Source: Leucoraja ocellata (lineage: Eukaryota). From it: a stretch of 64,000 nucleotides of DNA. A model generated the notes under the pieces. It was not told the DNA's origin. It saw only the letters and a program-made list of their open reading frames with translations, and did not search any database. Positions 1,268 through 56,868 of the stretch are shown piece after piece (within the stretch, counting starts at the first letter, position 1; each line of letters begins with the position of its first letter). The position numbers and the translations under genes are program-made. The stretch is from NCBI GenBank assembly GCA_036785375.1, contig JAWMAR010000118.1:5456001-5520000 (forward strand). Direction: 5' to 3'.

Positions 1268-1484
1268 GTGTGAGGGAAGGAACTGCAGATACTGGTTTAC
1301 ACCAAAGATGAACACAAATTGCTGGAGTAATCAGCGAGTCAGGCAGCATCTCTGGAGAAAAATAAATTGTGACATTTTGGGTGTGATGAAGGTTCTCGAC
1401 CCGAAACCTCTCCTTTCCTATTCCTTGTCTCTGGAGATGCTGCTTGACCTCCTGAGTTACTCCAGCATTTTGTGCCTATCTTCG
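1268..1484. mobile_element. Penelope-derived fold-back short element with hammerhead-like motif
   Basis: Inverted arms ctgcagatactgg...gctggagtaatcagcgagtcaggcagcatctctggag and ctggagatgctgcttgacctcctgagttactccagc, around tgatgaaggttctcgacccgaaac. Confidence 0.75.
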
Positions 1485-1998
1485 TTATTGTACAGAAATT
1501 CTTCTGGCTGTTAAACACCTCACAGAGAAAGGCATGGCGAAAAACTAGTGAAAAACCATTGAGTTTAATAAATGGGTGTTTTTCTGTGCTCCTAATCACT
1601 ATTTGCCTAATTTGTAACTAATGGCTACCAATCTTGCACTTTGTCTCTCATCCCCTTTCTTGCATCCCGTCAACCTCCATTTCTTATTTGCAGAAAACAA
1701 CTGCGCCTGAAGGTAAAAATTACCACAAGTTTACAAAACAGAAATGATTGAGTGAACAAAAGCAATGACAGTCTGGTGAATCAGGTACCGGGCAACCTAA
1801 AAGCTAATAATCAAAACTCCCACTGGCTGCAGTTCAAACCTATTTGGAATTGGAATGATGCATGGATCCAGTGCAGGCTGTGTTCTCTCTGATAGACAAG
1901 CAAATGAATTATTTGAATGTTAGTAGATAAAAAAAAACATTGATCTGCGGGGAGAGACACCTATAGTCAGAGACAGGAGAGCCCTGTGAGGATGAGAT

Positions 1999-2226
1999 GA
2001 TGTGTACCAAAGAACTGCAGATGCTGGTTTACACAAAGATAGACAAAAAGTGCTGCAGTTACTCAACGGGTCATGCAGCATCTCTGGAGAAAAGGAATGG
2101 TTGATGTTTCACGTCGAGACCCTTCTTCAGATTGAAGATAGGCATCAAGCCGAAAGGGCACCTATTCCTTTTCTCCATAGAAGCTGCCTGGCCCTCTGAG
2201 TCACTCCAGCATTTTGTGCCTATATA
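1999..2226. mobile_element. Penelope-derived fold-back short element
   Basis: Same inverted arms; minus-strand CTGAAGAAGGGTCTCGAC.TGAAAC motif at ~2105-2131; flanking 12-bp direct repeat tgagga(t/a)gagat at 1987-1998 and 2227-2238. Confidence 0.75.
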
Positions 2227-2419
2227 TGAGGAAGAGATTAGATTGGGGAAGAGAGAGCTGTTGACTTGTTTGTGATCAGGCATGAGATCTTCCATTATGG
2301 CCCAAAATTTGTTCTAACCAAAACAAATTATACAAAACATTATGGCCTGTTTTAGTCTATTGACTCTTCCCTGTTGTGGGAGGGAGATGCACACAGTAGA
2401 GGCCTTAAGAACAGAGAAG

Positions 2420-2690
2420 GTAGAACAGTACATCAACACAGGAGCCGTCCCTTCAGCTCACATTGTGCCAATCATAATTCTTGTCTAATTAATCCATCTG
2501 CCAGCATATGTTCCATATCCCTCTATTCCCTCTTTGTTCATGTGTCTGTCAAAATGTTTCTTAAACGTTGTTACTGTATCTGCTTCTGCGATCGTCTGTG
2601 GACCATCTCCACAAGTCTCCAAATCCCTCTTATGTGACCAGGCCCGCATACAATAAACAGGCTTCTTTGACATAATCTTAAACTGATGTT
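2420..2690 (-). mobile_element. Decayed CR1-type LINE 3' end
   Basis: Minus-strand translation TIAEADTVTTFKKHFDRHMNKEGIEGYG matches the CR1 ORF2 C-terminus and tail seen in other copies here. Confidence 0.65.
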
Positions 2691-3916
2691 ATGACTGATG
2701 ACCATATTGGATTGTGACTTTTTAATTTCAGCAAGTCTTCCGTGCTCCTAAATCTGTACCATTAAAACTACGCTACCAAAGAATATAGTCAGATGAAGTA
2801 AAGAACTGAACTTTTCAAATTTCAACATTTTCCATGCACTGTCCTTGAAAAGAGAACCGGGTGTTAAACTTTCAGCTCGAGTCTATATGAGATTTACTTT
2901 AATGTATTGGTTTACTATTAACTTTCCAGGGAATTTTTCCAACTGATCACTTTCTTCTGATGGTTTATTTTAAACTCGGAGAATTTTAAAATGTAAATTA
3001 GTTGAACAAAATACATTTTCACGTGTGTCTCTTTAACTCTGAGAGAATTGTGAATAAGAAATGTACAAATAAAACACAAAATGATTGCACATGAATTGGA
3101 TGGACTGCTGTCCACCTTGCTGGCTTGTGTTGTCTACGTTGTGCCATCTATATTGGCAACTAACTTAGCAAAATACTGAAGCACTTTCCTGAATGAATCA
3201 CTTTCATGACAGAATATAACCAATTCCATGTTGCATTCTTATGACAAAAATGTTCTTAGTAATTGCACGCTGGTACGTTTTTGTAACACTTAGCATTTTA
3301 TCAAGAAGCTCTGATTTTCTTAGGATGATGCCTGCCAATATATTTTTTAATTAATTCCATAAAATATATACAGGTTTATAGAGATTATACTTTCTGTTTC
3401 AGAACAATTTGGAATTTTTTACGTTAACATATTTTTCAGTCATTTGGGTTGCAGTATAAACCTAATCAGAACTTTATATTCTTTTACGCATTGGATAAAC
3501 CTTTTGATATTTAAATTAAAACTAACATTCCAGTGATAACGAGAACAAGTGAGTTGTAAAGTGCATCCTTTTGATCCGCTCCAAGCATGTATTGTAAAAC
3601 AGTTTATTTTAGATAAGTGCATAGGAAAAATGAGATTTTATTTATATATTTGATAAGTGCGTTAATTGCATCGAGGCTATGAATGCTATCAGTGTGCTTT
3701 TCCTATCAGCATTTGAAAGCAATTCCACAAATTTAGTGATAATATTTTGAACTATAGTTTTGCGCAACATTCATGGTTTGCCATTAGGTGCACAAGACCA
3801 GTCACTTTTGATAAGGCCAACTACTTGGAGTCTGCTGTCTGTGTTTTTGTTCAACAAATTTAAAAAGGAACAGTGACATGCCACACATATATAAGTGCAT
3901 TTTCTATTATGACTCT

Positions 3917-6915: not shown

Positions 6916-7024
6916 ACAGTCTCAGTCTGAAGACTTAGTCTGAAGAAGGGTGTCAACCCGAAACGTCATCTACTCCTTCTATCCAGAGATGCTGCCAGAA
7001 TTACTCCAGCATTTTGTGTCTGTC
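6916..7024 (+). mobile_element. Penelope-derived short element with hammerhead motif and 10-bp TSD
   Basis: CTGAAGA-A-GGGT-gtca-ACCC-GAAACGTC at 6940-6967; direct repeat ttaagtaaga at 6906-6915 and 7025-7034. Confidence 0.8.
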
Positions 7025-7516
7025 TTAAGTAAGAGCATACCGTGATCCTCAATAGTATTGAAAGTGCCACTAGCTTTTGAAAATAACCTTGTGCTTGGTT
7101 AAGAACAATGAAATTAGCAACAAATTTCCTCCATTAAATGTGAATTTCACACTAAACGAACACAATTTTAGTACATTTACATACATCTCTCATCTTAAGC
7201 ACACCTACCATTAGTCATTTCTGCTAGGTATATCATAGGAACACATTGTAGCACAGTCACTATTACTTTCCCCTCTCTCTTGCAGGGCATGGTTGCTTGC
7301 AGCCACACGCTGCAACAGCATGTATGGGGTTGGGGACCTTATCGTGGTCATTGGCCCTTTTATTTGGCAAAGAGTGTAGTGGCCATGGGCTCATTTGTCA
7401 CTTTGAATAATATTGAGGATTACAGTATGCTCTTATTTAGTCCCCCTCATACCCCACACTCCCATCATCCCACAATTCATTTTGGGTTTGTGATATCTAC
7501 TTGATTCAAGTACACG

Positions 7517-9469: not shown

Positions 9470-10309
9470 GTGCACAGGTGGTGTCACAGCTGTTCCATGC
9501 TTATTTATCATGAAGAGACCTGTGGTCAATGTCTCAGCTCCCATAACAGGAGAAGCAGAATCTATCTGCAGTGTAAGTCTTCCCCCATTACCAGGGCACA
9601 GGGCTCAATGTGATCTTGGGATGGGAGGATGGGGGTGGGCAAGAAACAACAGTTCAGCATTCTAACCTCCAGAGATGGCAGAAAGGCTACTTTGGGGGAA
9701 AGACAATGTCTTTGTGGATCATGAATTAACTGTTCTCCAGTCGGGTGATGACGTTTGTGATCCTAGAACTTCTCCAGAGTCTTGTTGCAGCCAGTTAACC
9801 AGCCAGGCCAAATAGCTGCTGTCATGACATAAGGGGTGCCTACCTACAGGGCAGCTTGTGTGTCTTCCTCCAAATTCACCTGCCGTCTCTTTCTTTGTAA
9901 GCTATGTGGCTTCCAGCTGTCACCTGCATATATTGGAGAGATTCTGCAATGAATTATCAGGCATTTCTTTCCAACCCAACTTTTCCATATGATGACATTT
10001 AAGGCAATTAGTTGATATTTGTGTCAGTGTTGTTGAAATTGGACTTTTTAGAGATGATTTGGAATGTATATTTAGAATGGTTTTCTTTCAACGATGTCAA
10101 GCAGATGCTAAGATGATCGGTAATAGACAATGGTAAGATAGAAAGAATTGAACTATTTTATTGAAATTGCACCTTGTTTAACGAACACTTTGCACTTTGT
10201 TTGGGATACCATCCCAACTTCCGCTTCATTACTCTGTGCAACTCTGATAAGTCCTCCAATAATTAAATAATATTTCCCTGTCACAAACCCTCCTTTGGGT
10301 GTGTCAGCA

Positions 10310-10410
10310 AGTCTGAAGAAGGGTCCCAACTCGAAACATCACCCATCCTTTTTCACCAGAGATGTTGCCTGACCTGTTGAGCTACTCCAGCACTTTGTGT
10401 CTATCTTTAC
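10310..10410 (+). mobile_element. Penelope-derived short element with hammerhead motif
   Basis: CTGAAGAAGGGTCCCAACTCGAAACATCACC from 10313, followed by the family arm gatgttgcctgacctgttgagctactccagc. Confidence 0.75.
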
Positions 10411-13529: not shown

Positions 13530-13795
13530 GTACCATCTGAAAATGGGCTTTGTCCCACCCCGTCTCTTTTCCAGTTTTCTCCCTCCCTTCCACAATCAGT
13601 CTGAAGAAGGGCCATGACCCGAAGCATCACCTATCCATGTCCTCCAGCGATCGGTCTGAAGAAGGGTCTCAACCCTTCACCCATTCCTTTTCTCCAGAGA
13701 TGCTGCCTGGCCCACTGAGTTACTCCAGCATTTTGTGTCTATCCTCCAGAGATATTGCCTGACTTGCTGAGTCACCCCAGCAGTTTGTGCTTTGA
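13530..13795 (+). mobile_element. Nested pair of Penelope-derived elements
   Basis: CTGAAGAAGGG cores at 13601 and 13656; the second copy sits inside the first with tcctccag on both sides. Confidence 0.75.
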
Positions 13796-14691
13796 TCTGA
13801 ATCCAGTAACAAGCTTTACCTCCTTTCTAGATTATATACAAACATTTTTAATGAGGTAAAGTGTTAAAGGTGTGGAACTAAAAGTGAGTTGTTTTTCTTT
13901 ACCATTAGGCCTACAGAATAGAAGCTTCAGAACGTGAGTGAAGCTATTGCTAACACAAGGCAGGGTCGCCATTTTCCTGCGGGAGAATCCCTGATTTCTT
14001 TGAAACATTATAAATCGCACTAAATAATTACATAATTATTTTATGGTCATTCTAGATGAAAAATATGTAAATTTCCTTGTCATGGTCTGCTACAGAAATA
14101 AATCTTTGAACTTATTAACTTATACTATGATATGAGGAACATGACTGATCTCACCAACTAAATTTATGTAGAAAAATGATTCTACTAAAATGATTGTGCT
14201 AAGTAGTTTAAATTGCACTAATAAACTATTAACCAGATAATTCAGAGAGGATTTTTTTCCTTAAATGTGTAATAGCATGTAATACATTTTCATTTTTCAA
14301 ATTTGGTTTTCTGTTTTTATTTTCAAATTAATTTGGGATGAATAAGGCAATGGCATTACCATTATTGGTTTATTTAATTATTTCAGCACAATAATTTGTT
14401 TGAGTTAAGAATGTAAATAAATTTATGTAACATTTAAAGATGCAATGATTGCAGCTTTTTTTAGATGGATGAAACTATAATATATTTTATGCCCAATGTT
14501 TTCTTTGGAAATTGCAAATATAAAGTATTCTGTTGCAGACATCAATCTATTAAAACAAAATACTGACTGGCATTTTATAATCTTAGAAAATTTAAAGTAA
14601 AGAAGACGGCCATTTAATCCATCTCCATGCTACTCTAAAAATAATTCCACTGACTAATCCCACCGTCCAGCAATAACAAAGCAGATCTCAG

Positions 14692-15077
14692 CTCACACCT
14701 CCGCTCAGTCCGTCTTAACATATCCGGTGGCCCAGCACTTCGACTACCCCTCCCATTCCCAATCTGACCTTTCTGTCCTGGGCCTCTTCCACTGTCAGAG
14801 TGAGGCCCAGCGCAAATTGGAGGAACAGCACTTCATATTTCGCTTGGGTAGTTTACACCCCAGCGGTATGAACGTTGGCTTCTCTAACTTCAGATAGCCC
14901 TTGCTTTCTCTCTCCTTCCCCTTCCCAGTTCTCCCATTAGTCTTACTGTCTCTGCCCACAGTCTATCTTTGTCCTGCCCCCTCCCCTGACATTAGTCTGA
15001 AGAAGGGTCTCGATCCGAAGCGTCGCCCATTCCTTCTCTCCATAGATGCTGTCTCACCCACTGAGTTACTCTAGCAT
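14692..15077 (+). mobile_element. Penelope-like element 3' fragment: GIY-YIG endonuclease C-terminus, 3' region and hammerhead motif
   Basis: HLRSVR at 14696, then 14724-14897 encodes PVAQHFDYPSHSQSDLSVLGLFHCQSEAQRKLEEQHFIFRLGSLHPSGMNVGFSNFR*, typical of PLE GIY-YIG ends; CTGAAGAAGGGTCTCGATCCGAAGCGTC at 14997. Confidence 0.85.
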
Positions 15078-15099
15078 GTAGTTGGAGGTTTCTGTCTAT

Positions 15100-19064: not shown

Positions 19065-19712
19065 CTATTAGAGAAGGTGCAAAAAAGATTCACAAAGATG
19101 TTACCAAAATGTGAGTGCTTGAGTTATAAGGAGAGACAAGATAGGTCGGGACTTTTTTCTGGAGACCATGGGGCTGAGGGGTGACCTTATAGAGCTGTAC
19201 AAAATAAAATCATAAGATGGATTGTCACAGTCCTCTTTCTCAGGCAAGGAAGTCTAAAACTAGAGGACATATGTTTAATGTGAGTGGGAAAATATTTAAA
19301 GGAAATCTTACAGGCTAGTTTTTCATGCAGAGAGTAGTTTGTATACGGAATGAGCTCGTCAGAAGAAATGTTAGAGAAGCAGTTGCGATCACAACGTTTT
19401 AAAACATTTTAAGGCATATGGATAGAAGGGACCAAGTGCTAGAGTAACACAATAGGTTAGGCAGCATCTGTGGGGAGAGTTAGAGAGAGATAGTTAGAAA
19501 GAGAGAGTTAGATAGAGAGAGAGTTAGAGTTAGAGAGAGAGAGTTAGAGGAACCCCTGTAGGATGACATTTTGGATCGGGACCTTTCTTCAGATTTTGAG
19601 CGATATGGGCCAAATGCAAGTAGATGGGACTCACTCAGGGAGTTACGTTGGTCGACAAGGATGAGCTAAACTGTGGGGGCTATTTCCATTCTGTGTAACT
19701 CTATGACTCTGA
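19065..19712 (+). mobile_element. Decayed CR1 3' fragment containing a minus-strand Penelope-derived insert and a (GA/GAGTTA)n microsatellite (19475-19550)
   Basis: EKVQKRFTKMLP...LSYKER...LRGDLIELYKI-type translation; tail ctctatgactct; insert at ~19425-19595. Confidence 0.75.
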
Positions 19713-31092: not shown

Positions 31093-34000
31093 TTTTCCGT
31101 TTAAATTTAATAGTGCAGCATGCTGCTGCTGACACTTAAGTGTTTCACATGCGGGAGTTATTTTTCGATTTGTACACTTATGAAATGATGGTCCCTTTAG
31201 GCAGTGAAGTGATCAGCCATGCCCACAGAATAAACTGGTTAGTATTGGAGCTGAGTAGTGATCATTGCCTGTTCACGATGTCACTGCGGCCCCACCATTC
31301 CCTGGGAACTGACCTATCTTTTCGCAGTCATTTCCACATTCTGTTTCCTGCTCTGAATCCCCTTTCTGTGTCGTGGGGGGGGGAGATGATTTGAAGATCG
31401 CCCAATTTGTTCTGACATAAAGAGATGTTTTGCTTTGTGAGAGAGGGTGGCAGTGGTGGTGGGCTCTGTGTGACTGACAACTGAACAGTGTGTCTGCCGG
31501 GCCAGTTCACCACATGTCCTTTCATATTCTCACCATGTCCTGCATGAGTGGTGTTTGATCTCTGCGGCTAAATATCAACAGACCCGGGGATTTCAGCGGA
31601 AAAAAAAAAATCCTGGAATTTAACACCTCGCTGTGCTGCGATGTGGGCTGAGAATTTGCAGGGAAACACCCAGTGAACGTGCAATCCTGATCATTTAGAG
31701 AGCAGCAATGCCGCACTAGATTCTTTATTTTGTTTCTTTTGAGAGTCGCGTTAAATTCAGGTCAAACTGATTCAGATTTGATCAGTCAGTACAGGTTTCT
31801 CTCTCTCCCAGTTTACAATAGAAAGTTAAGTGTTTGCAAGGAGCGATCCAGTTGAATATCTCAGGGCTACACAGCCTTTCAACCACAGTGCTGTTGTGTG
31901 TATGTCACATGCTAGTTTTGTTTTAAGAGTCTCATTTCCTTATACGGGTGCATGCAGATATCCATTTCCAAACCACTTGTCAGGCCTGAAATTATTTCAA
32001 TATTTTTTTTCTCTCTGGAGGGGAAATCTACCTTAGAATTCTCGTCAAGACTCAACTGATATATATTAAGCATATTGAATCCAAATAAATAAGTTATGAA
32101 AATATAACCGGCAGAGCTTTATTGTATTTCTTTGTGCCTTTTAAACTAGAGAAATTATTTGGAGTCCGTTTTAAGTGATCACATTTTATAGTAATCTGTT
32201 ATGATATAAAAGTCGAGAAATAAGCTACCAAAAATTGTAAGAGAAGATTTTTTTATTTATTTATGTAAATTGGAAATGGGCCGTGTAGCAGAGAAATGTA
32301 AAGATTCCTTCAGTGTTAGAATGTGTTGAATAATTTAAGATCTGACATAAAAAAAACTTGGTTACTTTTGCCATTTAAAATATGTCCGAAACTCTCTGCA
32401 ATACACAAACACATTGTAGCCTCAGATGTGTCCTTTTCTTTAAAGCTGCAAGACATAAAATTACTTGTTGTAAGCACTAAGCCAAATGGTCAAACCAATC
32501 TAAATCATGCATTTTAGACAGTGTCTGTTTTCTTTTAATTGGCTTGTTGCAACATGACATTTTGAATCATCTGGTGAAATTATATAGTACCTTACTGAAA
32601 GAAGCTTCTTTAGTTTGTTTTGATGGAAGAACAATCAATTTGATAAGTGGTAGCACATCTCATTGTCTCAGATTAATTATACTAATTGCTTGATGTTAGC
32701 CTTCAGAACAAGCCGAGCCTGAAGAGGAGTGAGGCTGTGGCCCCCCTTTGCATGCAGTGTGAGTGCCAGTTCCAGTTGCCTGCACACAGGCTGGATACAG
32801 CATTGTTAGAATTCAGGTCTACACCTTCGCTGTCAGTACTGGTTCTGCTGTAGTCAAGTTCCTGCTCTGAGCAGAGCAAATCTTTGCTCAGTTAAGTGAG
32901 CCTCAGTCACTGTTGCACTTTCAAAAGGCTTGGCCAACAGCCCAGCTTTGTTAGGCTTTTGGAGCTTCACCTGAATGAGATATTGACGGAGCTTTGTTAC
33001 CTGAACATCTCCAAATAACACAGGGGGAAAAAAAGATTTGATAATTAAATTGTTATAGAATAACAAAGTCTGCGGATTTCGAAGCCTGTGGCCTCCAGAG
33101 GGATTGTCATAGAAAATAGGTGACTATTTGGTCCTTCGAGCCTGCACCGCGTTATGGTTAATTTTGACTGGAATTTGCTTGTGAGCCCTAGATTCCAACA
33201 TTTGTACACTTTTGTTGATTTTATTCAACATTGCTTTATTTTCTTGAGGTGAGCCACCATTGTGATGACACTATTCGTTGCATGAGGGACTCCCATTTAA
33301 AAAAATAATAATTCTGAAGTGGTGTTTGCAGCCTCACACAGTATCTTATGAAGCATCAAAGTGTTGATTAGCAGAAAGACAAACCCATTCTGGGTGTGGC
33401 ACAATTTCCTGCCCTCTTGTAAATTCAGAACAGCTGAGCAACCCTATACATCTGAAGCACCTGGTCTCTAGGATTGGGTTACAGCAACTTTATTGTGTTG
33501 TTAAAGGTCAGTACTCGGCATATGCTGCATCTCTTCAGAGGTGCTTATCTAGCAGCTTATTCCATGATAACACATTTGCCGACTGAAGTCACAACTAACC
33601 ATAAAGAATGAAAAGCATTTCAAGCATCTCACCTTCCCCAAAACAAGCGTGCAATAGTAACGAGCTCTGCCCCTGACATGCAGCCCAGTGCCTTTAAATT
33701 TACTGTATGAAAGGTGGGATTGGCTCTTTAAAAGTTACAACTGGCATCTAAATTTGAAATAGAAACAATTGGAAGAATTGTTGTATAATTAATGTATTAT
33801 CCCTTGCTTTCATGTGCAATATTGCAGCTTCACGCCAGGAAAATTTTTAATTGGAAAGCACTGTAGCAAGCAAAAACTTCCCTTATCGAATCATCTTTGT
33901 CGATCAAATATCAGAATGTACCAGGGAATGAATTCATGCCTCAGCAAATGCACTGTTAATTGTGCATAAGCATCAATGGAATGTCAATTAAATGACATGA

Positions 34001-34689
34001 ATGGTGTCTATGAAAGTTTTTGATATTTTCACACCTTGGTTTACTTTCCATAGTCTCTTCTCTTATTTCACCCCTTCCTCCTGTAGTAGATGAATTTTTA
34101 AACAAAGCTGTGAACAACCCTATCACCATAACTTTTTTTAAATTTGCTTAAATTTAACCCAGGTCAGATTACCTCAGGTTTCACTGTGAATAAGATCGAC
34201 AGGTTGTTTGCTCTGCTTCCCTTTAGCTTCCCACTTGATAGAATGTGTAAAAATTGCTTCCTGATATTCTAAAGTCAAATTTTTGATGCAAAGGACGATA
34301 ATGTGCTTTAGGAACAGTGGGATTAGCTGTGGATTGCTGTAAAATAAAATTAGTATAACCGTGATATACAAATGGCCTTGTTCTTTGCGTTAAACCTGCA
34401 TGCTCTACTTTTCTTACTTGACGCTTGCGTAAGACTGATAGCAGTCAATGCAAGCTGGTAATCTGAATCGCGATCCTTCAGCTCAATATAGTCATAGAGT
34501 TATGAAGAGATACAGCCCAGAGTCAGGCCCTGTAACCCGGCGTGCCTGCAATGAACATCAAACACTCAATTACGCTAATAAATCCTTTTTTTTTTAAAGG
34601 ATTTTAAAGCCTATTTCCTTCGCTCCATGGATGCTGCTGCCCCCGCTGAGTTTCTCCAGCTTTTTTGTCTACCTTTTTTTTAAATGTTG

Positions 34690-35232
34690 GTTTAGTCTTA
34701 GTTTTGAGATGCAGCGCGGAAATAGTTCCTTCAGCCCACCGAGTCCACGCCAACCATCATTTACCTATTCAAACTAGTTCTATTTTAGGGGCACTAGGGG
34801 CAATTTTACACCGGCCAAGTAACCTACCCATACATCCTTGGGATGTGGAGGTTAACCAGAGGAAACCAACGGGGTCACAGGGTGAACATGCAAACTCCAC
34901 ACAGACAGCACCCGAGGTCGGGATCCAACTGGGATTTCTTACGGTGTGAGGCAGCAGCTCTACCAGCTGTACCACTAAGAAGCCCCTCTTCTCACATTCC
35001 CATGAACTCCCCATAGTTTCTACAACTCGTCGACACTGTAAAGCCAATTTGCAGTGGCCAATAAACTGACTGACTCGCACGTCTTTGGAATATGGGAGGA
35101 ATCAGAAGCATCTGGAGGAAGCACACGCAATCACTGAGAGAACATGCAAACTCCACACAGTCAGCACCCTAGGTCAGGATTGAACCCAGGTCACTGATGC
35201 TGTGTGTTAGCAGCTCTACTAGCTGTGCCACC
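34690..35232 (-). mobile_element. Two adjacent HE1-like V-SINEs
   Basis: Two copies of gaacatgcaaactccacacag.cagcaccc...gcagctctac.agctgt.ccac. Confidence 0.85.
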
Positions 35233-35454
35233 TAGTTTGTTGGAGTAAAGACATAAAAACATGTACAAATGATTCTCTTCTCTAAAGATTTAGAGGTTTT
35301 GCTGTTTGAACCTGGTCAGGAATTAGCAATAACCTTTTCAAGGGATAAAACTGAACTCATAATCCTCTAGGCGAAGAAACCAGTGTTCTAGAATAGAGTT
35401 TCCACTGCAGACCACTGTCATAGGAATAATCCTTTGCATCTGTATGGAAATACT

Positions 35455-35745
35455 TAATTTAGTTTAGTTTAGTTATTTCGTTCATTGTCACGTGGTACAG
35501 TGAAAAGCTTTTGTTGTGTGCTAGCTAGTCACAAGATTACAATCGGGCCATCCATGGTGTACAGATACATGATATAGAGAATAACGTTTAGTGCAAGGTA
35601 AAGTCCAGTAAAGTCCAATCAAAGATAATCCACTGGGCTCCAATGAGATAGATAGTAGCTCAGGACCGTTCTCTAGTTGTGGGTAGGATGGTTTAGTTGC
35701 CTGATAATAGCTGGAAGAAACTGTCCCTGAATCTGGATTGCGTTT
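35455..35745 (-). mobile_element. Retroelement 3' end in reverse orientation
   Basis: (tttag)n then ttcattgtcac...tacagtgaaaagctttt...gctggaagaaactgtccctgaatctgg; related starts at ~6653 and ~43400. Confidence 0.55.
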
Positions 35746-37282
35746 GTTCTTATTGCAAAGAAGATAGATATATTGTAAAATATTTTACCGTTCAGCTCTG
35801 TCATAGAAAGAAATTAAACATAAAATCTTATCTCCATTTGGCCATGAATGAAGAGAGTTTTAAGCGTAAACAGTTTAGCATGAATATCCTTACATCACTG
35901 TGGGCAACCTCGGAGCTCTAACACATTGAATCGGTTGCAGTATCCATGTTCCACCTCTGAGGTCAGTATGCATTGACATGGATGAAGCTCCATCAATCCA
36001 CCCTGGTTATTTTGACAGTTTACCTTTTGTATTATTTCTACAGTGCCCTGCCTAGCTCTGTCTTGTCTGTATGATTAAATTTGGCAGATGGCACTTTTCA
36101 GGCCAATAAATTAACACTGTGTTGAACTTTGATACAGTGTGTGGTGCAGGTTATAATTTAACAGTACTTGCTCAGAACTCATTTTCAATTACGTTAAGTG
36201 TGATTGCGTTTCTTTTTATTAATTTTGCCATAGTTTTAATTTTGTAGATCTAATATACAGTATATCTACTAGTTTAAAATTCTAACGGTTCATCTGTCGA
36301 TTGAAGCACAAAATAGTGAAAGTAACTAAATCCATAGCTGAGGACATATATGTCACTTAAATTTGTAAATTTAGAAGTACTTGGATTAGTGAAGATTTGG
36401 AGTATCTAATACTTGACTTGAGACTTGATTCTAAAGTTAAATATATCAAATGAATTTGAGTGGAGAGAACTGGCAAACCTTCTAAGATGGCATCAAAAAT
36501 CCACCAGAACTGTCGAGATTTACAGCACATAAACCCACTCAGCTGCTTTCGCCTGTTGGCTTTGTGTCGGTTTGTTGGCTTCAGCAATCCAAAAACAAAT
36601 CTCTCTTTCCACAGTTCTATTTGTTCTGGTGCATCAATTTTTTTTTTCCAATTTTCCCTTCAAAGTTTCAGTAGTTTCCTCCAACTATTCACTTGCAGCA
36701 GAGTACATAGTCTCCGTGTAAAGAGCATCTGCCTGTTATCTTCATTTATTTGCTGTCATGTTCAAAATTATTGATCCTTCGTGAATGATTCCACACTCAG
36801 AAAATAATCTTTACTGATTAGCTCTTTCAAAATTGTGGAAGAAAAATTGGCACAGGGGCTGAATTTTCCGTAAGCATGGATCTTAGTCGTAGCATTTCTG
36901 CCTGTTATACCAACGTCTCCATAGTCCTTGATCCCATGGTCAGGAATACTGCAGAACGGGCCCTGGTCAAATCCTTGCTACATGAACAAAGTCTGCTGAT
37001 GTCCAAATGTATGTCTTAACCCCACTATTAGCACATTCTCAATGGGGCATGAAGGAGGGGATTCAGAGAAGTTTCTGAAATCTGCTTCCCTATCCTTGTT
37101 TACATGTAAAGAGTTACTCAACCTATTGGACACATAAGAGATTGCAGATACTGGAATTTTGCACAAAATCAAGCTGCTGGACAAACTCAGTGGGTTAGGC
37201 AGCTCAGTGCTGGAAAATGTTAGTCCAGCAGTCTGTTTGGATCCATTAGCACTTGTTTAACAAAATAACCAAAGTTGTTTTA

Positions 37283-38095
37283 AACCCGGGAAGATTATCT
37301 TAACTTGGGTATTTTACAACTTAACAGTATAAGCATTGAACTCTCTGACTTTAGGTACCTAATCAACTATAACCCTCCCCCCCTTTTCTCCCCCTCTTTT
37401 CCATTTGTCCACTATGAAGCACATCCATTTCTCCCACTATCTCCCCCCCCCCCCCCCCCCCCCCTTCCCCATCCACCTGTCACCCTTCCTCTGACTTCAC
37501 ATTTGGAACCTCTTCTCTCATTACCTCACAGCGTTTTGTCTTTTCATCTGTGGCCTTTGTTCTCCCAGTTGCCAATCAACTCTGAACCCCCTCCCCCGCC
37601 CTGACTTGTATCCACCTATCACATGTCAGGCTTTGTCCCACCCCCACCACTATGTACATTCTAGTCTCTCCCCCACCACCAAAATCAGTCTGGAGAAGCG
37701 TCTTTACACTTTGGACTTTAAAGATACAGAGCGGAAACAGGCCCCTCAGCTCCTCAAGTCCGCACAGACCACTGATCCAGCATTAATAAACCAGCACTGT
37801 CGTACACACTAAGGGCAATTTACAATTTTTAATAAAGCTATTTAACGTACAAACCTGTACGTCTTTGGACTATGGGGGAAAACCGGAGCACCCAGAGAAA
37901 AACCCACGCAGTCACAGGGAGAACGTACAAACTCCGTACAGACGGCACCTGTAGTCAGGATCGTACCCGGGTCTCCAGCGCAACAAGGCAACAACTCTAC
38001 GGCTGTGCCATTGTTCTAACCCAAAACATTGCTTACCCATGTTTTCCAAGATGCTGCCTGACTTGCTGAGTTACTCCAGCAGATTTGTGTCTTTT
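37283..38095 (+). mobile_element. Penelope-like 3' fragment whose hammerhead motif is split by a V-SINE (37703-38012, minus strand)
   Basis: LGILQLNSISIELSDFR resembles the PLE end LGSLHPSGMNVGFSNFR; cagtctggagaagcgtct [SINE] aacccaaaacattgc...gatgctgcctgacttgctgagttactccagc. Confidence 0.75.
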
Positions 38096-38639
38096 TTCAA
38101 AGATCGCTTTAACAATCATTTCCAGGTGAAATCGTGTATACCAGGAACTTGGGGGAGGTACATTTGCACACAATTCACCCGAGCACAGCTGATCTATTCC
38201 TCTGTGTCAGTTAGTCATCTAATAACATCACAAGAAGAGTTTCCTCCATTGTCGACATCAATTGAAGCTCCTGGCTGCAGCCTATAATTTGCGCTGAACA
38301 CTCGCAATGCAACTAGAATTACATTGTGGTGCTTTGTAGCATTTGTCTCCATTTGCAAAGGGAACTCTGCAGACTGCTGGTGATCTAACTGGGCTCACTG
38401 CAGGCTCTTCAAGCAGCTTCCAAAGTCTGCAGAATGTGGTTAATCCAACAGGGTGTGTTTCTTTTTTCAGCATTTAGTGCTGAGATACTCATTCCGTTGG
38501 TTCAATCTGTACAGTGGTCAGTTTATATCTGCACCTAGAAGAATGTAATTTTAACATGAATAAAAACCCATTTCAACCAGGCTAGAATTTAGAATTAATT
38601 AAGGCAGAAAAAAAGGCAAATGTAGGGAGTCATAATGTA

Positions 38640-38800
38640 CAAACACGAAACTGCAGATGCTGTTACCATAGAAAATAACAAAGTCTGAAAAAATCTGAAG
38701 ACGTGTCCCGACCCAAAACAATACCTATTCATGTTCTGCAGAGATGCTGCCTGAACCGCTGAGTTACTATATACAGCAATGGTTTCCAATATTTGTGTTT
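38640..38800. mobile_element. Penelope-derived short element
   Basis: ctgcagatgctg arm; ctgaagacgtgtcccgacccaaaac; gagatgctgcctgaaccgctgagttact. Confidence 0.7.
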
Positions 38801-40044: not shown

Positions 40045-40047
40045 GCC

Positions 40048-40266
40048 TAAAATGCTGGAAATACTCAGCAGGTCAGGCCACATCTGTGGAAAGAAATAAT
40101 AAAGGTAATATTTCAGGAATAAAATCCTTCCTCACCCTTGTTCTGATGAAAGGTCATTCACCAGGAACATTAACATTGTCTCTCTTCCACTGATGCAGCC
40201 TAAACAGCTGAATGATTTTTAGGGTTTTCTGTTTTTTCTTAAATTTTGGGTTTCCAGCATCTCCAG
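40048..40266. mobile_element. Older Penelope-derived fold-back element
   Basis: aatgctggaaatactcagcaggtcagg left arm; CTGATGAAAGGT at 40143; right arm ending ccagcatctccag. Confidence 0.7.
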
Positions 40267-40517
40267 TTTTTCATTGGATTTTCACTTACATGATGCAAAT
40301 TGACGGTTTTCTCATGAGGAAGGTTGTCAGTGGTCTGAATCTGCACATTGACGACTTCTCAGAGGAAGATGCAGTAACCTGCTGACACTCCATCATTATT
40401 TCAATATCAAGAACCAGGGCTGAGCTAGTTTACAGTCTCCCGGCCATAGGTCCCTTCAACCTTATTCTTTTCCTTGCTCTCTGTGCTCTCATTAAAGTGT
40501 AGTGCGTGAATTGAGGG

Positions 40518-41614: not shown

Positions 41615-41955
41615 GCATGGACAAGGAGCTGCAGATGCTGGAATGATAAGTAACAGTGTTGGAGTAACCCAGTGAGTCAGGCAGCATTTTCGGAGAACAT
41701 GGACAAACAACTTTTCAGGTCGGGAAAGGACACAAAGTGCTGGAATAACTCAGCCGATGAAGCAGCATCTCTGGAAAACAGGAATACACAAAAGGACATA
41801 AAATACTCCCGAGATGTTGTCTAGAGGTGCTGCCTGATCTGCTGAGTTACTCCACGCACTTTCTGTCCTTTTGTGTATTAATCAGCATTGCAATTCCTTG
41901 ATTCTATATTTCAGTTAAGGACCTTTCTTCGGACTCCATCACTTTGTGTTTTAAA
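41615..41955. mobile_element. Nested Penelope-derived short elements
   Basis: Two successive left arms (gctgcagatgctgg..., gacacaaagtgctgg...) and a right arm gctgcctgatctgctgagttactcca. Confidence 0.7.
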
Positions 41956-42468: not shown

Positions 42469-43494
42469 TATATCTCATGGCCGGGACCCCCTTCTTCTCA
42501 TGGCCACCAAAGCCTAACATGAATATCACCGAGCCTTCTCCCTTTTGCCTGCAGCCTCACCCTTCACCAGAACTGCCTTGCATGTGTTGCAGTTTAAGGC
42601 TGTGAAGGGGCATGTGCCTTCAAGGGATGTGCCCCTACTCTGTTTTCTTTTGCACTATATAGGAAATAAGGTCCCGTGCAGATCCTGATTTGATGCATTA
42701 ATTCAGGGTGCAATTAGCGAGGCATTATTTCCCTTGGCCGTTATCGGGAATTTTTGCAGGTGATCTAGTTGAGGAGTAGCACCGTAAACAGCATGTGTTT
42801 AGTGCACCAATAAAGGGCGAAATTCAATTTCTAGCATACAAACTTAATCCAATAATAATTGATTGCTTCATTTCAACTTCGACTCCAATTCATGTTGATT
42901 TCCAATCAGAGCCTATGACTGTCAGTAACTTATGAATAGCTTTCACATATCAGCACCAGAATGGTTAAGAAGTCTTTAAACTCTGCTTACTGCTTTATAG
43001 TGGAGAGCCATAGGTCAGAGCAGACCTTACGGTTGTTCTGATTATAGGCTTAAATAATAAATTCCCAAAATACCCAATTTTAAGTCCAAAAAGAATCTTA
43101 TGTTTTGAGTATTAAATAGCTTCAACAGAAGACAACATAGCTTAACTATGTTATTTCCAGACTTTGGTCTTTAAAGTGTTTAAGAGTTTGTGTATTTTTA
43201 GTTGACCCAGGTCAGAGATCTCAAATTAAAGCTTTTGGTTGTATCCGAAGAACAACTGGCAGACACAAATCATATTCCTAACTGCATTTTGCACTTACTG
43301 ACAACAGAGCTCTATTTATCAGTTTTCACAGGAATGTCAGCTCTTCACACCAATGCGTATTTTCTTCTAATATCGAAAACAATGATATATAAATTTAAGA
43401 TCAAGAGTCAAGGGTGTTTTACAGACAAACATATGTCCCGAAACTGAACAATAAAATTCTTACTTGCAGCCAGCACAACAGATATGTAAACATA

Positions 43495-43680
43495 AGTTTA
43501 GCACAAAAAGCTGGAGTAACTCAGCGGGACAGGCAGCATCAGAAGGGTCATTCTTCAGAATGGTCTCGACCCGAAACGTCACCCATTCCTTCTCTCCAGA
43601 AATGCTGCCTGCCCCGCAGAGTTACTCCAGCTTTTTGAGTCCATCTTCGGTTTAAACCAGCATCTGCAGTTCCTTCTTAC
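43495..43680. mobile_element. Penelope-derived fold-back element with 17-bp TSD
   Basis: Inverted arms around gaatggtctcgacccgaaacgtcacc; acagatatgtaaacata at 43478-43494 and 43681-43697. Confidence 0.85.
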
Positions 43681-49624: not shown

Positions 49625-50050
49625 TCAGAAAACAACAAACACTCAGCAGGCCATGTAGCCTATGTGAGAAAAAACACATTTCAAATCTGGGGCTCTTCAT
49701 CGGAACTGGGAAGGAGGCAAAGCATGTTAGTTTTCACTAGCAGAGGAGGTGTGGGGGGACTGGTGAGAACAAAGGGAATATCTCTGATAGAGTGACCAAT
49801 TACCTAATTTAGTTCTTATTATATCAAAGATATTCCCTTTGTTCTCTCTGCCCACCCCCTCCCACACTGTTCCTCCAACACTGCCGAACCCTCTCTGCCA
49901 CTGAAAACAAACTTGTTTTCTCTCCCTTCCAGTCCTGATGAAGAATCCCAAAACTGAAACGTCAGTTTCTCTTTCCACAGATGCTGCCGGACTGGCTGAG
50001 CTATTCTTTTAGCATTTTTTCTTTTTATTTCCGATATCCAGCATCTGCAT
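49625..50050. mobile_element. Long, old Penelope-derived inverted-repeat element
   Basis: gagaacaaagggaatatctctgata / tatcaaagatattccctttgttctc inner inverted pair; CTGATGAAG...GAAACGTC at 49935-49963 with a decayed inverted counterpart near 49690. Confidence 0.7.
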
Positions 50051-51059
50051 TTTCTCTTTTATTTTGAAACTGTGATAGAGGTAGGTGAGGAAGGATGGGA
50101 GTGGGGCAATGAACCAGTGGGGCAGAGTGTTTTTCTGTGCTGTACATTTTAAGTAATCGATGTGAAGTTGCATCACCATCAATAGCATTGATCCATAAAT
50201 GAGTGCTCTATATTTAAAGACTCCAGCATATCCTTGGGAGAGTTATATCTGTATTCTGTGCATTTGTATGCAGTGCATAGTAAAATTCCTCAAAACAGAT
50301 TTTTAGATATTCACAGTAACAGCAGTGCTATTTTGTGTTGAAAGTTAAAATCTGTACTCTATTATCTTCATATCTAATTTCACACATAATTTAGATTTTC
50401 TTACTTCAAGAATGTAAGCACAGTGGAGAATTGGTCAACTATTATTGGCCGTTGCCACCTTACATAGATTTTGTATTGTCAGACAAGTGGGGCCTTTGAA
50501 CATATAGTAATGGCCTTGTACATATAGTAATGAGTACAAGGCCATAGGAAAAAAAACATGCAGTTGTATCAGAATGAAGTAAGCTGCCATTTGAAACCAC
50601 TTAAAATGTCAGTGACTACATTAAAGCTACCTAAAAATTGATTTTTATTTTGTACCAGGTGACTTAATAAAACTTTCTTTTCTGCTTTCCTTCTTTCCGC
50701 CTCACATTACAACTGTAAAAAGATTGTCATTTAATACATCCAAAGAAGTTGAAAAGGTTAATTGATTTATTCAATAAATATATACAAGGTGATCCAAGTC
50801 GGAAACTATTGTATTTTCTTCTGTATTCCTTCCTTCCATTAATGGGTGTTATATGTTGTCTTGTCCACGCCCACCCAATTTCACATTCTGCATATCTTTT
50901 TACTGACTTCCATCTGAGTGAAAAACATATTTTGCCTCCAACCATTGATCACAAATTCACCACTGTTATAGAGAATCATGCCATTTATAATAAGTGAAAT
51001 ATCAAAACTATATTTTTAATATATCCTTTCTTCCAAATGTAAAAGCATTTTTGCTTTCA

Positions 51060-53709: not shown

Positions 53710-54022
53710 AAAAGCAAGAAGCAAAACACTAGAGGAATTCAACAGTTTAAGAAGTAACTGCAGATGCTGGAAAAATCGAAGGTAGATAAAAATGCTGGAG
53801 AAACTCAGCGGGTGGGGCAGCATCTATGGAGCGAAGGAATAGGAACTCAACTGGTTAGGCAACATCTGTGAAGGAAAATGGACAGGTGGGGTTTCAGCAT
53901 GGGGTAGGGTCCTGGCCTGAAACGTCACCTATCCATTTCCCTCCACAGATACTGCGTGACACGCTCTGTTCCTCCAGCACTTTGTTTTGCGCTCAGGATT
54001 CCCGCATCTGCCGTCTCTTGTG
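53710..54022. mobile_element. Nested Penelope-derived short elements
   Basis: Arm ctgcagatgctgg...gcagcatctatggag inside an older fold-back copy containing gggtcctggcctgaaacgtcacc. Confidence 0.7.
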
Positions 54023-55455
54023 TCAACAAAATGCACTTACATATATTGTAAGTTGTATTTTGTATTTGCTGTTGTGGCTTGTTCCATGCAACAAATGTGC
54101 TGAACATTACCCTAACGAAAGATTTGGAGATTGTTTCTAAGTGAATTCAGTATCATTTTCATATTTTGTAATGAGGGAAAATGTGTTTTTTTTTAAATAA
54201 CGATCTCATTGGGACAGGGGAGAATGAGATACCAAGCTAATTATTTTTTCAACCAAATAGTGAATATTCAAAGTTCATTTATCCTCCCCAGGGAACCTTT
54301 TTGCCGCTACAATTAAAGTCAGTATTTTTTTTTCACATTGTATATATGTTAATTATTACATTTACAAAGTAACGGAATTTGTTGTATATGTGCTGCCTGA
54401 TGGAGCAGAGAAATAGTGGCAATGTTCCTATGAAGGCCTATACTGTTATCAAGTAACGAGAAATATCTATTTTTGTAAGCCATATCATCAAATGTAAGAT
54501 GCAGACCCCTCTACAATTACTGGCTGTGACCAGGAGGACCGTGTTCATCCAGGCTCGCTGGGAGTTCTCCAAGGTAATTGAAATTCTACCTCCATAGAGT
54601 TCAGATGAGAAGTGATATGAAGATGTGGGAAAACCTGAGCTGAATTGATTTTTTTTCCCCTTAATGTTTGGACAAAGAAATAACTTAGCTAAGTGTAGCA
54701 GAGATGATAAGCGCATTCAGTAATGGTAGATTAAGAGGCCTGCATCAGTTAACACAGACTGTATTTTATTCTCCCTCTATGTGCTGCCATGTTTAGATTG
54801 GAGATTAATTGCAATAGAATTACTGTACGTCTGTTTGTTTTTTTAACAATTGCAAATTACATTAAACAGCCAATGTGTTTTCTAATATGATTGTTCTTAC
54901 CTGATAATTGGGATGGCGCCACAAGAGATTTTGATAAGAAATTCATAAACACTCTTTTATGAAGCCCTCGTGACTTCATTTTGTGACTATCTAGAGTGAC
55001 AAATTATTTGAAGAAAGCAGACATACACACAAAACACAATGCTCTGTTTCTTTCAGCGTTATGGCTCTTTGTTTATTTTTTCAAATATTTGCCCTGTGTT
55101 ATCTTGCATATGATGAGGAATATCATGAAATGCTATACAGCAGCAATGTTTCCTGGCTAATTTCTTTTTTTCCTGCTCCTCCTGTAGCCTGATAGCTGTA
55201 CATGGGCAAAAAGTATGAAATTGTTATCTGTTCTTGCAATTAGAGATCAGCCTTTTTCATTCCAATCCTATTTGAAGATTGATTTGATTTTCGTCCAATA
55301 ACAAAAATATACCAGAACACAGCTTGGGTTTTGTGGAGATATCTGTAGCTGTGAAGTGTTAATTGCAATTTAGATAAGGATTAGAAGGACCATATCTCAG
55401 TAGACCACATTTATTTGCAAGTGCTGTACTGTAATGCATCATGATTTCTTGGGGT

Positions 55456-55550
55456 TGTGTGTGTGTTTGTTTGTGTGTGTGTCTGTGTTAGATGGTCTGT
55501 CTGTCTGTATGTGTGTGTCTGTGTCTGTGTCTATGTGTGCGTGTGTGTGT
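55456..55550. repeat. Degenerate (TG)n microsatellite
   Basis: TG/TC array. Confidence 0.9.
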
Positions 55551-55917
55551 TTACAGAGTGCCCACATTTAGATAATGTGGATCTGGCAAGCCCTCCTGCC
55601 AGCATCACCACACTACATGCAGGGGTTTGGAGAATGGTAGAGCAGACTTCTTAAATGTGCAAAATTTCTAGTTCTAAACTAACTTCGTCTGCTGAATTGA
55701 CCTGATTTACATGACTTTTCCCTCACTGTCCTTTCTATCTCAACTTCTTCGGCTCTGATTCATTATCTTAACTGCTGTGTTACCTGCTTTATAGACAATA
55801 GACAATAGGTGCAGGAGTAGGCCATTTGGCCCTTTGAGCCATTCAATGTGATCATGGCTGATCATGGCATTCTTCAACTCAGCTGGGTACTTAGTGACTG
55901 ACCAGTTGTTTAAGTGA

Positions 55918-56077
55918 TGTTTAAGAAAGAACTGTAGATGCTGGAAAGATCGAAGGTGAAGTTAGACCTAAAATGCTGAGTAACTCAGCGGGTCAGGCAG
56001 CATCCCTGGAGAAAATGGATAGGTGACGTTTTGGTTCGGGACCTCTTTGCGGACTGGTCATGACCCAAAATATTCTT
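55918..56077 (-). mobile_element. Penelope-derived short element with 15-bp TSD
   Basis: cagttgttt(a/g)agtga at 55903-55917 and 56078-56092 flanks the family arm. Confidence 0.8.
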
Positions 56078-56674
56078 CAGTTGTTTGAGTGAGTTGGGCA
56101 GAAGGTGTATTCCACTTTCCTAGCACAGTACAGTTTTATTTACATGCAAAATGCCATAGAAATACCAGTTATTGTGTCCGATGTATGTTTTAATCTGCTA
56201 TTGAATTATTATTTGAGGATTGTCCATTGCTTCTCTTGCCAGAAAATAAAAAAAATTACATATGTACAACTAATAAAATTTACATTAATTAAATTGAACA
56301 TTACAGTAATTTTTTTCCTCTGGTCCCCAAGAGATAATAATGTCTGAACTGATTTTATCCATTCGGTTAAATCTGATCTACGCTCTATTTGAGAAAGAAC
56401 TTCATAATTTTAAATCCAGCCTCGTGAGCGTGCCCGTTTTAAATAGGTTGAGACCGTCGTGTGGCACTAAACAGGGTAGAGGAGAGTGTAAACATAGGTT
56501 TCTGTGGGATTGGGGGTCACAATGAGCTTACAACGTACAGTAATTGAGGGGGGAATATCATCATGATGGTTTTGATGGCCGCTCAGACATGAGAAGGTTG
56601 AGAACATTGGGTAAGGGGCTGGGGTAAATCCAACACTACCTCCCTGAAGATAATCACAAAGATATTAAAAGGAA

Positions 56675-56868
56675 ATTGCTGGAGTAACTCAGCAGGTCAG
56701 GCAGCACCTCTGGTGATGTTATGGTCGAGATCCGAGTCTGAAGAAGGGACTCGACCTGAAATGTCACCTATTAATTTTCTCCAGAGATACTGCCTGACCC
56801 ATTGAGTTACACGAGCATTTTGTATCTATCTTCGGTGTAAATCAGCATCTGCAGTTCCTTCCTACTAC
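56675..56868. mobile_element. Penelope-derived fold-back element
   Basis: gctggagtaactcagcaggtcaggcagca left arm; CTGAAGAAGGGACTCGACCTGAAATGTCACC at 56738; right arm ending gcatctgcagttcc. Confidence 0.8.

What the first reader, a model, noticed from the sequence alone, without database searches (positions are those of the whole stretch)
1268..56868. Abundant Penelope-derived short retroelements carrying minimal hammerhead ribozyme motifs throughout the ESRRG 5' region
Seen: well over a dozen related 100-400 bp elements with the consensus CTGA(A/T)GA-A-GGGT-ctcg-ACCC-GAAA-CGTC-acc. Plus-strand cores lie at 6940, 10313, 13601, 13656, 14997, 40143, 49935 and 56738; minus-strand cores near 2105-2131 and 19563-19592. 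This is the hammerhead core (CUGANGA, stem II, GAAA, UH cleavage site) with a tiny palindromic stem III; upstream ggt can pair with downstream acc as stem I. Known: Penelope-like elements carry minimal type I hammerheads that often act as dimers. Inference: this is a retrozyme/SINE-like non-autonomous family in a cartilaginous fish. Sense copies would lie in ESRRG pre-mRNA if upstream promoters are used. Most copies look mutated.
Basis: partly seen in the sequence, partly recalled or inferred. Interest (0 to 1): 0.75.

Follow-up and report, generated by a model that had tools for sequence, protein, structure and literature searches.

The report
Penelope retrotransposon ends with hammerhead motifs
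These repeats are decayed end-pieces of a Penelope-type jumping gene in what is likely a skate or ray; they carry a known kind of tiny hammerhead (self-cutting RNA) motif that is damaged in all but one of the copies here that span it, so they are likely ordinary transposon debris and not a regulator of the neighbouring gene.

Summary
The repeat is real: 33 hits at E<0.01, 4.7% of the window, and all ten cited cores are present. It is the 3' end of an endonuclease-bearing Penelope-like element (PLE), probably Neptune, not a separate retrozyme or SINE.

- One copy runs on from an in-frame GIY-YIG C-terminus (tblastn E 6e-18 to a whale-shark RT+GIY-YIG protein).
- All 10 head-to-head pairs carry the ~30-nt PLE tail on exactly one arm. 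One pair has a 17-bp target-site duplication.
- The motif fits the published minimal type I hammerhead, and stem I covaries in relatives.
- Here stem I is mostly 2 bp (AGT, not GGT), window copies show no covariation, CpGs have decayed, and only 1 of 18 cores is intact.
- No RNA ends pile up at the cleavage site in two RNA runs of relatives (weak test).
- There is no strand bias relative to the ESRRG-like exon.

One oddity: 14-16 of 34 copies begin just upstream of CUGA, not at the cleavage site, and genomic contigs show the same boundary. Verdict: new member of a known kind, low interest.

The parts
14724..14897 (+). In-frame C-terminus and stop codon of a PLE GIY-YIG endonuclease; a frameshifted piece (HLRSVR) lies just upstream at about 14688
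   Evidence: 79% to P0001, 56% to P0124 (E 6e-18)
14898..14993 (+). Pyrimidine-rich 3' UTR between the ORF and the hammerhead
14994..15098 (+). Hammerhead core (C3 at 14997, predicted cut after 15024; A15.1 mutated) plus 3' part; no tail
6919..7030 (+). Only copy with intact core, stem II and ACGT palindrome (2-bp stem I); small duplicated 5' piece; 10-bp flanking direct repeat at 6906 and 7025
1273..1489 (.). Head-to-head pair; tail on the minus arm only
2004..2228 (.).
10308..10410 (+). Solo copy starting at AGT; palindrome lost by CpG decay
13540..13808 (+). Partial tandem of three truncated copies; the first keeps about 55-70 nt of UTR; both cores are broken
19429..19595 (-). One copy split by a GA-rich microsatellite
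28606..28975 (.). Head-to-head pair; the minus arm is interrupted by another repeat (its two pieces are weak hits, E 0.016-0.021)
38645..38795 (.). Pair: minus-strand tail fragment (E 0.03) and a plus copy without tail
40047..40272 (.). Diverged head-to-head pair; tail on the plus arm
41621..41935 (.). Compound insertion of four pieces (tandem plus inverted)
43487..43680 (.). Head-to-head pair; tail on the plus arm; exact 17-bp target-site duplication at 43478 and 43681; folds as a long hairpin (z -9.4)
49641..50057 (.). Long head-to-head pair in which both arms keep UTR sequence; tail on the plus arm
53748..54024 (.). Pair plus an extra tandem minus copy
55922..56073 (-). Tailed copy with a short inverted stem II fragment at its 5' end
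56668..56864 (.).
27723..38098 (.). Further solo fragments lacking the 5' half of the core, at 27723 (+), 34615 (+), 37134 (-) and 38015 (+)
62190..62247 (+). Short coding exon with a GT donor; ESRRG identity is recalled; not part of the element

Best explanation
The repeats are 5'-truncated, decaying 3' ends of an endonuclease-bearing Penelope-like retrotransposon, likely of the Neptune clade, and the hammerhead motif is the one such elements carry just downstream of their protein gene. Shown: the order GIY-YIG end, ~100-nt UTR, hammerhead, ~65-nt 3' part, optional tail; head-to-head pairs with one tailed arm; one clear target-site duplication; CpG-biased decay. Inferred, from the in vitro work on the anole PLE (PMC11167929): the element's protein would nick both DNA strands and prime cDNA at the two ends of the tail; the two short cDNAs would be joined at their truncated ends, giving a hairpin with one tailed arm. 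Inferred: the hammerhead would be kept only in active master elements, where it would cut weakly, as a dimer through ACGU or with protein help. The genomic copies would be inert, and in pairs the opposite arm is predicted to sequester the motif. The boundary at AGT likely marks the 5' end of the uncut template RNA, possibly a transcription start (about 0.4), or else a reverse-transcriptase stop or template-switch point.
For:: in-frame GIY-YIG C-terminus about 100 nt upstream of the core; its shark relatives P0124-P0127 have GIY-YIG (and three of them RT) matches, and P0124 has a CX4CX2C linker, which PMC8557442 (passages) ascribes to Neptune and Nematis. P0125 reads through into codons matching the hammerhead region; 23 of 126 metagenome matches to the core have a PLE endonuclease end upstream on the same strand, 21 of them at 80-153 nt; stem I pairs 1-3, not part of the search pattern, pair in 23, 23 and 20 of 25 clusters (shuffled means 10-13; 0 of 5000 shuffles); 10 of 10 pairs have exactly one tailed arm, as described in PMC8557442 and PMC3846280 (passages). 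CpG mismatch 80/209 against 387/2027 elsewhere; 1 of 18 cores intact; rare variants hit the core (19/197) as often as other positions (229/1869), p 0.36. RNA reads and contigs cover both the endonuclease end and the hammerhead unit.
Against: Only 1 of 34 copies keeps any ORF, and no RT is present in the window, so the clade rests on homologues. Clear target-site duplications are few: 1 of 20 insertions has 17 bp and two more have 10-11 bp, one of them a T-run. Arms of a pair are only marginally more alike than other copies (median 0.715 vs 0.68, p 0.08). Random 5' truncation does not predict the sharp boundary. Counting all variants, the core is more conserved than the rest (19/197 vs 387/2027, p 0.0007); I attribute this to subfamily masters and to seeding the profile on the motif. 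Two of the 10 pairs use weak hits, and one tail-to-tail neighbour exists (41816/41908).
Confidence: 0.85

Rival explanations
1. The short units are a separate non-autonomous family (SINE- or retrozyme-like): short master copies starting at AGT are transcribed and mobilised by the PLE protein.
For: Of 34 copies, 20 reach the start of the core and only 4 continue into the UTR. Loose ends peak at 14994-14996 in both DNA runs. RNA depth over the hammerhead unit is about 4.5-7 times that over the ORF end. PMC3846280 (passages) reports that pLTR sequences suffice for mobilisation in trans.
Against: No tandem arrays of intact units. No Rfam family reaches its gathering score anywhere in the window, and no tRNA, 5S or 7SL match is listed. 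Copies also start at many inner positions (+6 to +49). Short and UTR-bearing copies occur side by side in visibly different sequence variants (by eye). Summed contig depth over the ORF end is of the same order as over the hammerhead (not a copy number).
Confidence: 0.12
2. The hammerhead-like core is functionless in this lineage, kept by descent or as a protein-binding or promoter signal, and never cuts.
For: Stem I is 2 bp in the majority. No covariation among 15 window copies: 96 to 485 of 500 shuffles reach the observed measures, and no stem II pair changes on both sides. The profile consensus does not favour the hammerhead fold (stem II probability 0.16 for the short form, 0.01 for the whole unit). 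No RNA ends pile up in two RNA runs. Cleavage is dispensable for insertion in the anole PLE (PMC11167929).
Against: Core bases are uniform across subfamilies while loop II and the flanks vary. 23 of 126 relatives also have only 2 contiguous stem I pairs, and D. virilis PLEs have a 2-bp helix I (PMC4209133). The anole ribozyme cuts only with protein, which folding cannot show. This rival concerns activity, not origin, and is compatible with the best explanation.
Confidence: 0.35
3. Sense copies are co-opted ribozymes that cut or regulate ESRRG pre-mRNA.
For: 13 of 18 core-spanning copies are on the plus strand (p 0.096). The single intact copy (6935) is sense. Mouse Esrrg has transcripts with upstream untranslated exons (10.64898/2026.05.02.722410, passages).
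Against: All hits: 19+/14-, p 0.49. 17 of 18 cores are broken with a CpG-decay pattern. The family is genome-wide (66,724 and 76,423 contigs laid). The intact copy has no intact partner within the window, and its stem I has probability 0.0 in its native context.
Confidence: 0.02

Closest known systems
EN+ Penelope-like elements, Neptune clade (PMC8557442, PMC3846280; shark proteins P0124-P0127)
   Same: C-terminal GIY-YIG, hammerhead downstream of the ORF, 5' truncation, inverted 5'-truncated partner, 30-40-nt tail on one end, occasional target-site duplication.
   Different: Only a 57-codon ORF end is in the window; most copies are 50-130 nt; many share one 5' boundary just upstream of the core.
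Minimal type I hammerheads of metazoan PLEs (Cervera and de la Pena 2014, PMC4209133)
   Same: CUGANGA and GAAA-UH core, extra base between A9 and 10.1, G10.1-C11.1 pair, palindromic 15.2-16.2 with no loop III; mostly single dispersed motifs, some pairs on opposite strands 100-700 bp apart.
   Different: Helix I is 2 bp here against 4-5 bp in the Schistosoma motifs (2 bp in D. virilis). No shark, Callorhinchus, Leucoraja or Raja term was found in the supplement text searched (file 1 was not searchable).
Poseidon element of the green anole, PAc (Frangieh et al. 2024, PMC11167929)
   Same: Tail bounded by two RT start sites, both DNA strands nicked and extended, unprocessed RNA used as template, no RNA-seq reads ending at the cut site; all fit the anatomy here.
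   Different: Different clade; its hammerhead overlaps the ORF start. None of this biochemistry was tested for the present element.
Non-LTR retrozymes of animals (bioRxiv 10.64898/2026.07.22.740005)
   Same: Type I hammerhead, related to PLE pLTRs; reported in one chondrichthyan genome.
   Different: Defined there as tandem repeats with at least two consecutive complete hammerheads; none exists here.

Membership tests
EN+ PLE | C-terminal GIY-YIG endonuclease collinear with the repeat | tested here: met
   (14724-14894); homologue P0124 passes the Pfam GIY-YIG cut-off. The window piece alone has no Pfam match.
EN+ PLE | PLE-type RT in the same ORF | tested here: inconclusive
   Absent from the window; RVT_1 matches below cut-off in P0124, P0126 and P0127.
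EN+ PLE | Head-to-head inverted truncated copy | tested here: met
   10 pairs; opposite-strand joints at 14994 in contigs of both DNA runs.
EN+ PLE | 30-40-nt tail at one end only | tested here: met
   10 of 10 pairs.
EN+ PLE | Target-site duplication (optional) | tested here: met
   17 bp at 43478/43681; 3 of 20 insertions have >=10 bp against a null of 0.8%.
Neptune clade | CX2-5CX2C linker between RT and EN | tested here: inconclusive
   Present in P0124, P0126 and P0127; this part is not in the window.
Neptune clade | Placement in an RT phylogeny | not tested
   No RT in the window and no named reference set at hand.
Minimal type I hammerhead | 11 conserved core bases and a UH triplet | tested here: met
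   Majority sequence; 5 of 18 copies keep all 11.
Minimal type I hammerhead | Extra base after A9, stem II with G10.1-C11.1, palindromic stem III | tested here: met
   (closing pair GC 7, GU 4, other 4 of 15); ACGT intact in 5 of 18.
Minimal type I hammerhead | Stem I of 4-5 bp | tested here: not met
   2 bp in the majority; 3 bp in 2 of 18 copies. A 2-bp variant is described for D. virilis PLEs.
Minimal type I hammerhead | Covariation of stems | tested here: inconclusive
   None among window copies; strong for stem I among 25 clusters of relatives, which are not independent.
Minimal type I hammerhead | Self-cleavage as a dimer or with protein | not testable with these tools
   Table of molecule ends is empty in two RNA runs of related organisms; a weak test.
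Non-LTR retrozyme | Tandem array with at least two consecutive complete hammerheads | tested here: not met
   both cores of the 13596-13808 tandem are broken.
Non-LTR retrozyme | Circular RNA intermediate | not testable with these tools
   No suitable library was laid.
SINE | Head derived from tRNA, 5S or 7SL RNA | tested here: not met
   No such Rfam match listed at E<=10; the unit starts at the hammerhead.

The most novel reading that the evidence does not exclude
The fixed 5' boundary at (C)AGT, three bases before CUGA, is the element's own transcription start, an initiator-like YCAGTCT. The element then mass-produces 'mini-PLEs' by priming at the tail of the upstream pLTR and running off the 5' end of the uncut RNA. 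Thousands of genomic junctions would be a fossil record that hammerhead cleavage takes no part in insertion, and that the 5' ribozyme copy is disabled by having only three bases for stem I.
Probability: 0.3. Interest if true: 0.5.

Novelty: new member of a known kind. Interest (0 to 1): 0.22.

Why it matters
As a family it is ordinary: minimal hammerheads occur by the thousand in animal PLE remnants (PMC4209133). It is a practical annotation nuisance, since two public gene models have absorbed this endonuclease end (P0003, P0128). The one useful point concerns an open question, what PLE hammerheads do (PMC8557442 calls it unclear). A very abundant vertebrate family whose copies start just before the core, and rarely at the cut site, offers a large natural data set on the template used for insertion.

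Tried and rejected
- Rfam scan of the whole window: no hammerhead family at E<=10.
- No whole genome is held, so no genome-wide consensus or tree was built.
- Searching with full P0001 returned other RTs in its top 120 rows, because that gene model joins an unrelated RT to the endonuclease end; the search was repeated on residues 136-236.
- P0124 against metagenome contigs: 74 pattern matches, 0 confirmed. Core pattern in viral contigs: 0.
- Splice-acceptor idea (pyrimidine tract plus AG before the core, as for the D. virilis intron): none of the 15 joints shown is an RNA-supported GT..AG skip to 14996; 117 joints were not shown. Unsupported, not excluded.
- DPE idea: ACGT lies at +27 to +30 from the A, about 3 nt off the spacing I recall for Drosophila; rejected as support.
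- Hammerhead cleavage as the source of 5' ends: 2 of 34 copies start at +29 to +32, 1.2 expected.
- Strand bias of single-cell run X24 (about 7:1): library chemistry unknown, so not interpreted.
- 5'-boundary count in the metagenome families: discarded, because the largest cluster (64) merges several families.
- No RNA holder was listed for the locus itself.
- ESRRG exon against the PDB: no match.
- Three look-ups of earlier findings: nothing.
- Lunse et al. (dimeric PLE hammerheads) is not held; seen only as cited in PMC6765202.
Full report
Observation. A profile built from 14 window copies finds 37 hits at E<=1 and 33 at E<0.01 (19 plus, 14 minus; 2,985 bases, 4.7% of the window); the reversed window gives one hit at E 0.16. 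A 28-nt core pattern matches 8 times with up to 3 mismatches, against none in 100 shuffles. Copies are 65-93% identical to the profile consensus, median 79%. The unit is a hammerhead-like core, about 65 nt of 3' sequence, and an optional tail of about 30 nt. Rfam lists no hammerhead at E<=10.

Origin. The copy ending at 15098 continues upstream through a pyrimidine-rich stretch into an open frame that ends at 14897. That peptide matches the C-terminus of a little-skate gene model at 79% (P0001) and 356 representative proteins at E<=0.001. The endonuclease part of P0001 retrieves 6 proteins. Three are shark proteins and one is unnamed (P0124-P0127); all four have GIY-YIG Pfam matches and three have RT matches, mostly below cut-off. 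The other two are host gene models that have absorbed the same piece. P0124 aligns to 14724-14894 at 56% (E 6e-18), and no other part of P0124-P0128 matches the window. P0124 has a CX4CX2C linker between RT and endonuclease, which PMC8557442 (passages) gives as the mark of Neptune and Nematis elements. The clade call therefore rests on homologues. The host is inferred to be a skate or ray from the best-hit names.

The same layout recurs elsewhere. A core pattern scanned over 24 of 64 parts of the metagenome collection gave 120 loci, of which 80 had flanks fetched. Of 126 oriented matches, 23 have a PLE endonuclease end upstream on the same strand, 21 of them at 80-153 nt; the window copy has about 100 nt.

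Anatomy. Ten minus/plus neighbours lie head to head, and in all 10 exactly one arm has the tail. Two of these pairs use weak hits, and in one I assigned a separated tail piece by hand. There is one tail-to-tail neighbour and four same-strand tandems. This is the arrangement described for PLEs in PMC8557442 and PMC3846280 (passages). The pair at 43487-43680 has an exact 17-bp target-site duplication; 3 of 20 insertions have a flanking repeat of 10 bp or more against a null of 0.8%, one of them a T-run. All nine paired regions folded give hairpins (z -3 to -12 against mononucleotide shuffles; z -9.4 against dinucleotide shuffles for 43487-43680). PMC11167929 (parts 1-2 of 4) showed for an anole PLE that both DNA strands are nicked and extended and that RT starts at the two ends of the tail. 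Twin priming therefore explains one tailed arm per pair; this is inference. Arms of a pair are only slightly more alike than other copies (0.715 vs 0.68, p 0.08, 8 pairs).

Is it a hammerhead? The majority sequence has all 11 core bases, the extra base after A9, a 4-bp stem II closed by G-C, and the ACGT palindrome. These are the traits listed for minimal PLE hammerheads in PMC4209133 (parts 1-2 of 4). In relatives, stem I was not part of the search pattern, yet its first three pairs form in 23, 23 and 20 of 25 clusters (from 119 of the 126 matches), with A-U/U-A/G-C swaps; none of 5000 shuffles reached these values, while pairs 4 and 5 were at chance. The clusters are related, so the shuffle result is not a true probability. 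Against activity here: GGT precedes the core in 2 of 18 copies, stem I is usually 2 bp, only 6935-7030 is fully intact, and the ACGT palindrome survives in 5 of 18. Fifteen aligned window copies show no covariation beyond shuffles. Folding does not favour the hammerhead form for the consensus. CpG positions mismatch at 38% against 19% elsewhere. The core looks more conserved when all variants count (9.6% vs 19.1%, p 0.0007), but not when only rare variants count (9.6% vs 12.3%, p 0.36). That fits conservation among master elements and neutral decay after insertion; the profile was also seeded on the motif.

Genome-wide and RNA view. On 14450-15250 at 80% likeness, 66,724 and 76,423 contigs from two genomic-type runs were laid, plus 12,117 and 40,667 RNA reads from two related organisms (4 of the 24 runs listed; 6% and 3% of the RNA runs were read). 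The family majority restores GAAA and ACC and has C at 14993. RNA depth over the hammerhead unit is about 4.5-7 times that over the ORF end; summed contig depth is similar in both places but is not a copy number. The table of places where many molecules begin or end is empty, so there is no sign of cutting; fragmented libraries, other species and many dead copies make this a weak test. Contigs of the second DNA run span both junctions of this copy with few differences, so the insertion is shared with a related organism.

The 5' boundary. Of 34 copies with a mappable start, 14 start inside the unit (+6 to +49 from C3), 20 reach the start of the core, and only 4 of those continue into pyrimidine-rich UTR; 2 of the other 16 match the core poorly. 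With the inner truncation rate, 14 of 18 stopping within 12 nt has p about 2e-10, provided no unrecognised UTR variant was missed. In the DNA runs the largest listed upstream loose ends are at 14994, 14995 and 14996 (814, 481, 320 and 937, 545, 377 contigs) with heterogeneous flanks (agreement 0.32-0.33). No row at the cut site (15025) is among the six listed per run; 1,996 rows were not shown. Two caveats apply: this copy has a private T at 14993 that pushes clipping to 14994, and in the single-cell run the loose letters are pyrimidine-rich, so many there are UTR variants. Starts near the cut site are no commoner than expected (2 observed, 1.2 expected). The boundary sequence resembles an initiator (YYANWYY, recalled). 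PLE pLTRs hold internal promoters (PMC2377424 and PMC3846280, passages), but in D. virilis the start lies 46 nt before an intron that ends at helix I, so a start at the hammerhead is a guess. I did not see this boundary described in the texts I read. The searches were made, of which I saw listings and read only the papers named; Repbase, Dfam, Lunse et al. and file 1 of the PMC4209133 supplement were not available and may bear on it.

ESRRG. A 19-codon exon with a GT donor lies at 62190-62247 on the plus strand; I recall it as the first coding exon of ESRRG, unconfirmed by tools. Mouse Esrrg has transcripts with upstream untranslated exons (10.64898/2026.05.02.722410, passages), so an intronic position is possible but was not tested. 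Copies show no significant strand bias (19+/14-, p 0.49; core-spanning 13+/5-, p 0.096).

Comparison and verdict. It works like, and on the features testable here belongs to, the EN+ PLEs with minimal type I hammerheads. It fails the tandem-array definition of a non-LTR retrozyme in bioRxiv 10.64898/2026.07.22.740005 (parts 1-3 of 5), where 1 of 9 Xenopus dimers cleaved in vitro, and it has no small-RNA head. PMC6765202 was seen as passages. Verdict: a real feature, a new member of a known kind, interest 0.22. The shared 5' boundary is the one part worth following up.

Noticed in passing
window 23-256: Inverted repeat with 90-nt arms, 96% complementary and 54 nt apart; MITE-like hairpin.
   Followed up: no
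window 39102-39898; related 88-nt repeats at 4137, 5318, 20724, 39964: Remnant of another non-LTR RT (tblastn to the RT part of P0001; ORF); the 88-nt family is probably its 3' end (CR1-like by recall).
   Followed up: no
window 17286, 26729, 34859, 35115, 37896, 48658: A second dispersed repeat family of 87-190 nt on both strands, SINE-like by eye.
   Followed up: no
P0003 and P0128 (public gene models): A little-skate myocardin isoform and a Rhinoraja neuromedin-U receptor model contain this element's endonuclease end; exonisation or annotation error.
   Followed up: partly
P0125 C-terminus: The zebra-shark PLE model reads through its 3' UTR into codons matching the hammerhead region, like the frame at window 14994-15030.
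   Followed up: partly
window 6919-6940, 38681-38695, 43536-43552: Small duplicated or inverted pieces of the first bases of the unit at 5' junctions, suggesting repeated template switching at the boundary.
   Followed up: partly
window 27946-28109 and 30028-30191; 18511-18693, 23002-23112, 24328-24524: Young repeats (86-94% alike) unrelated to the finding.
   Followed up: no
window 29196-29381: A 186-base N gap next to a long GT-rich microsatellite.
   Followed up: no
L009, L013, L039, L077: Metagenome loci with two hammerhead matches on opposite strands, the same inverted layout in unrelated hosts.
   Followed up: partly
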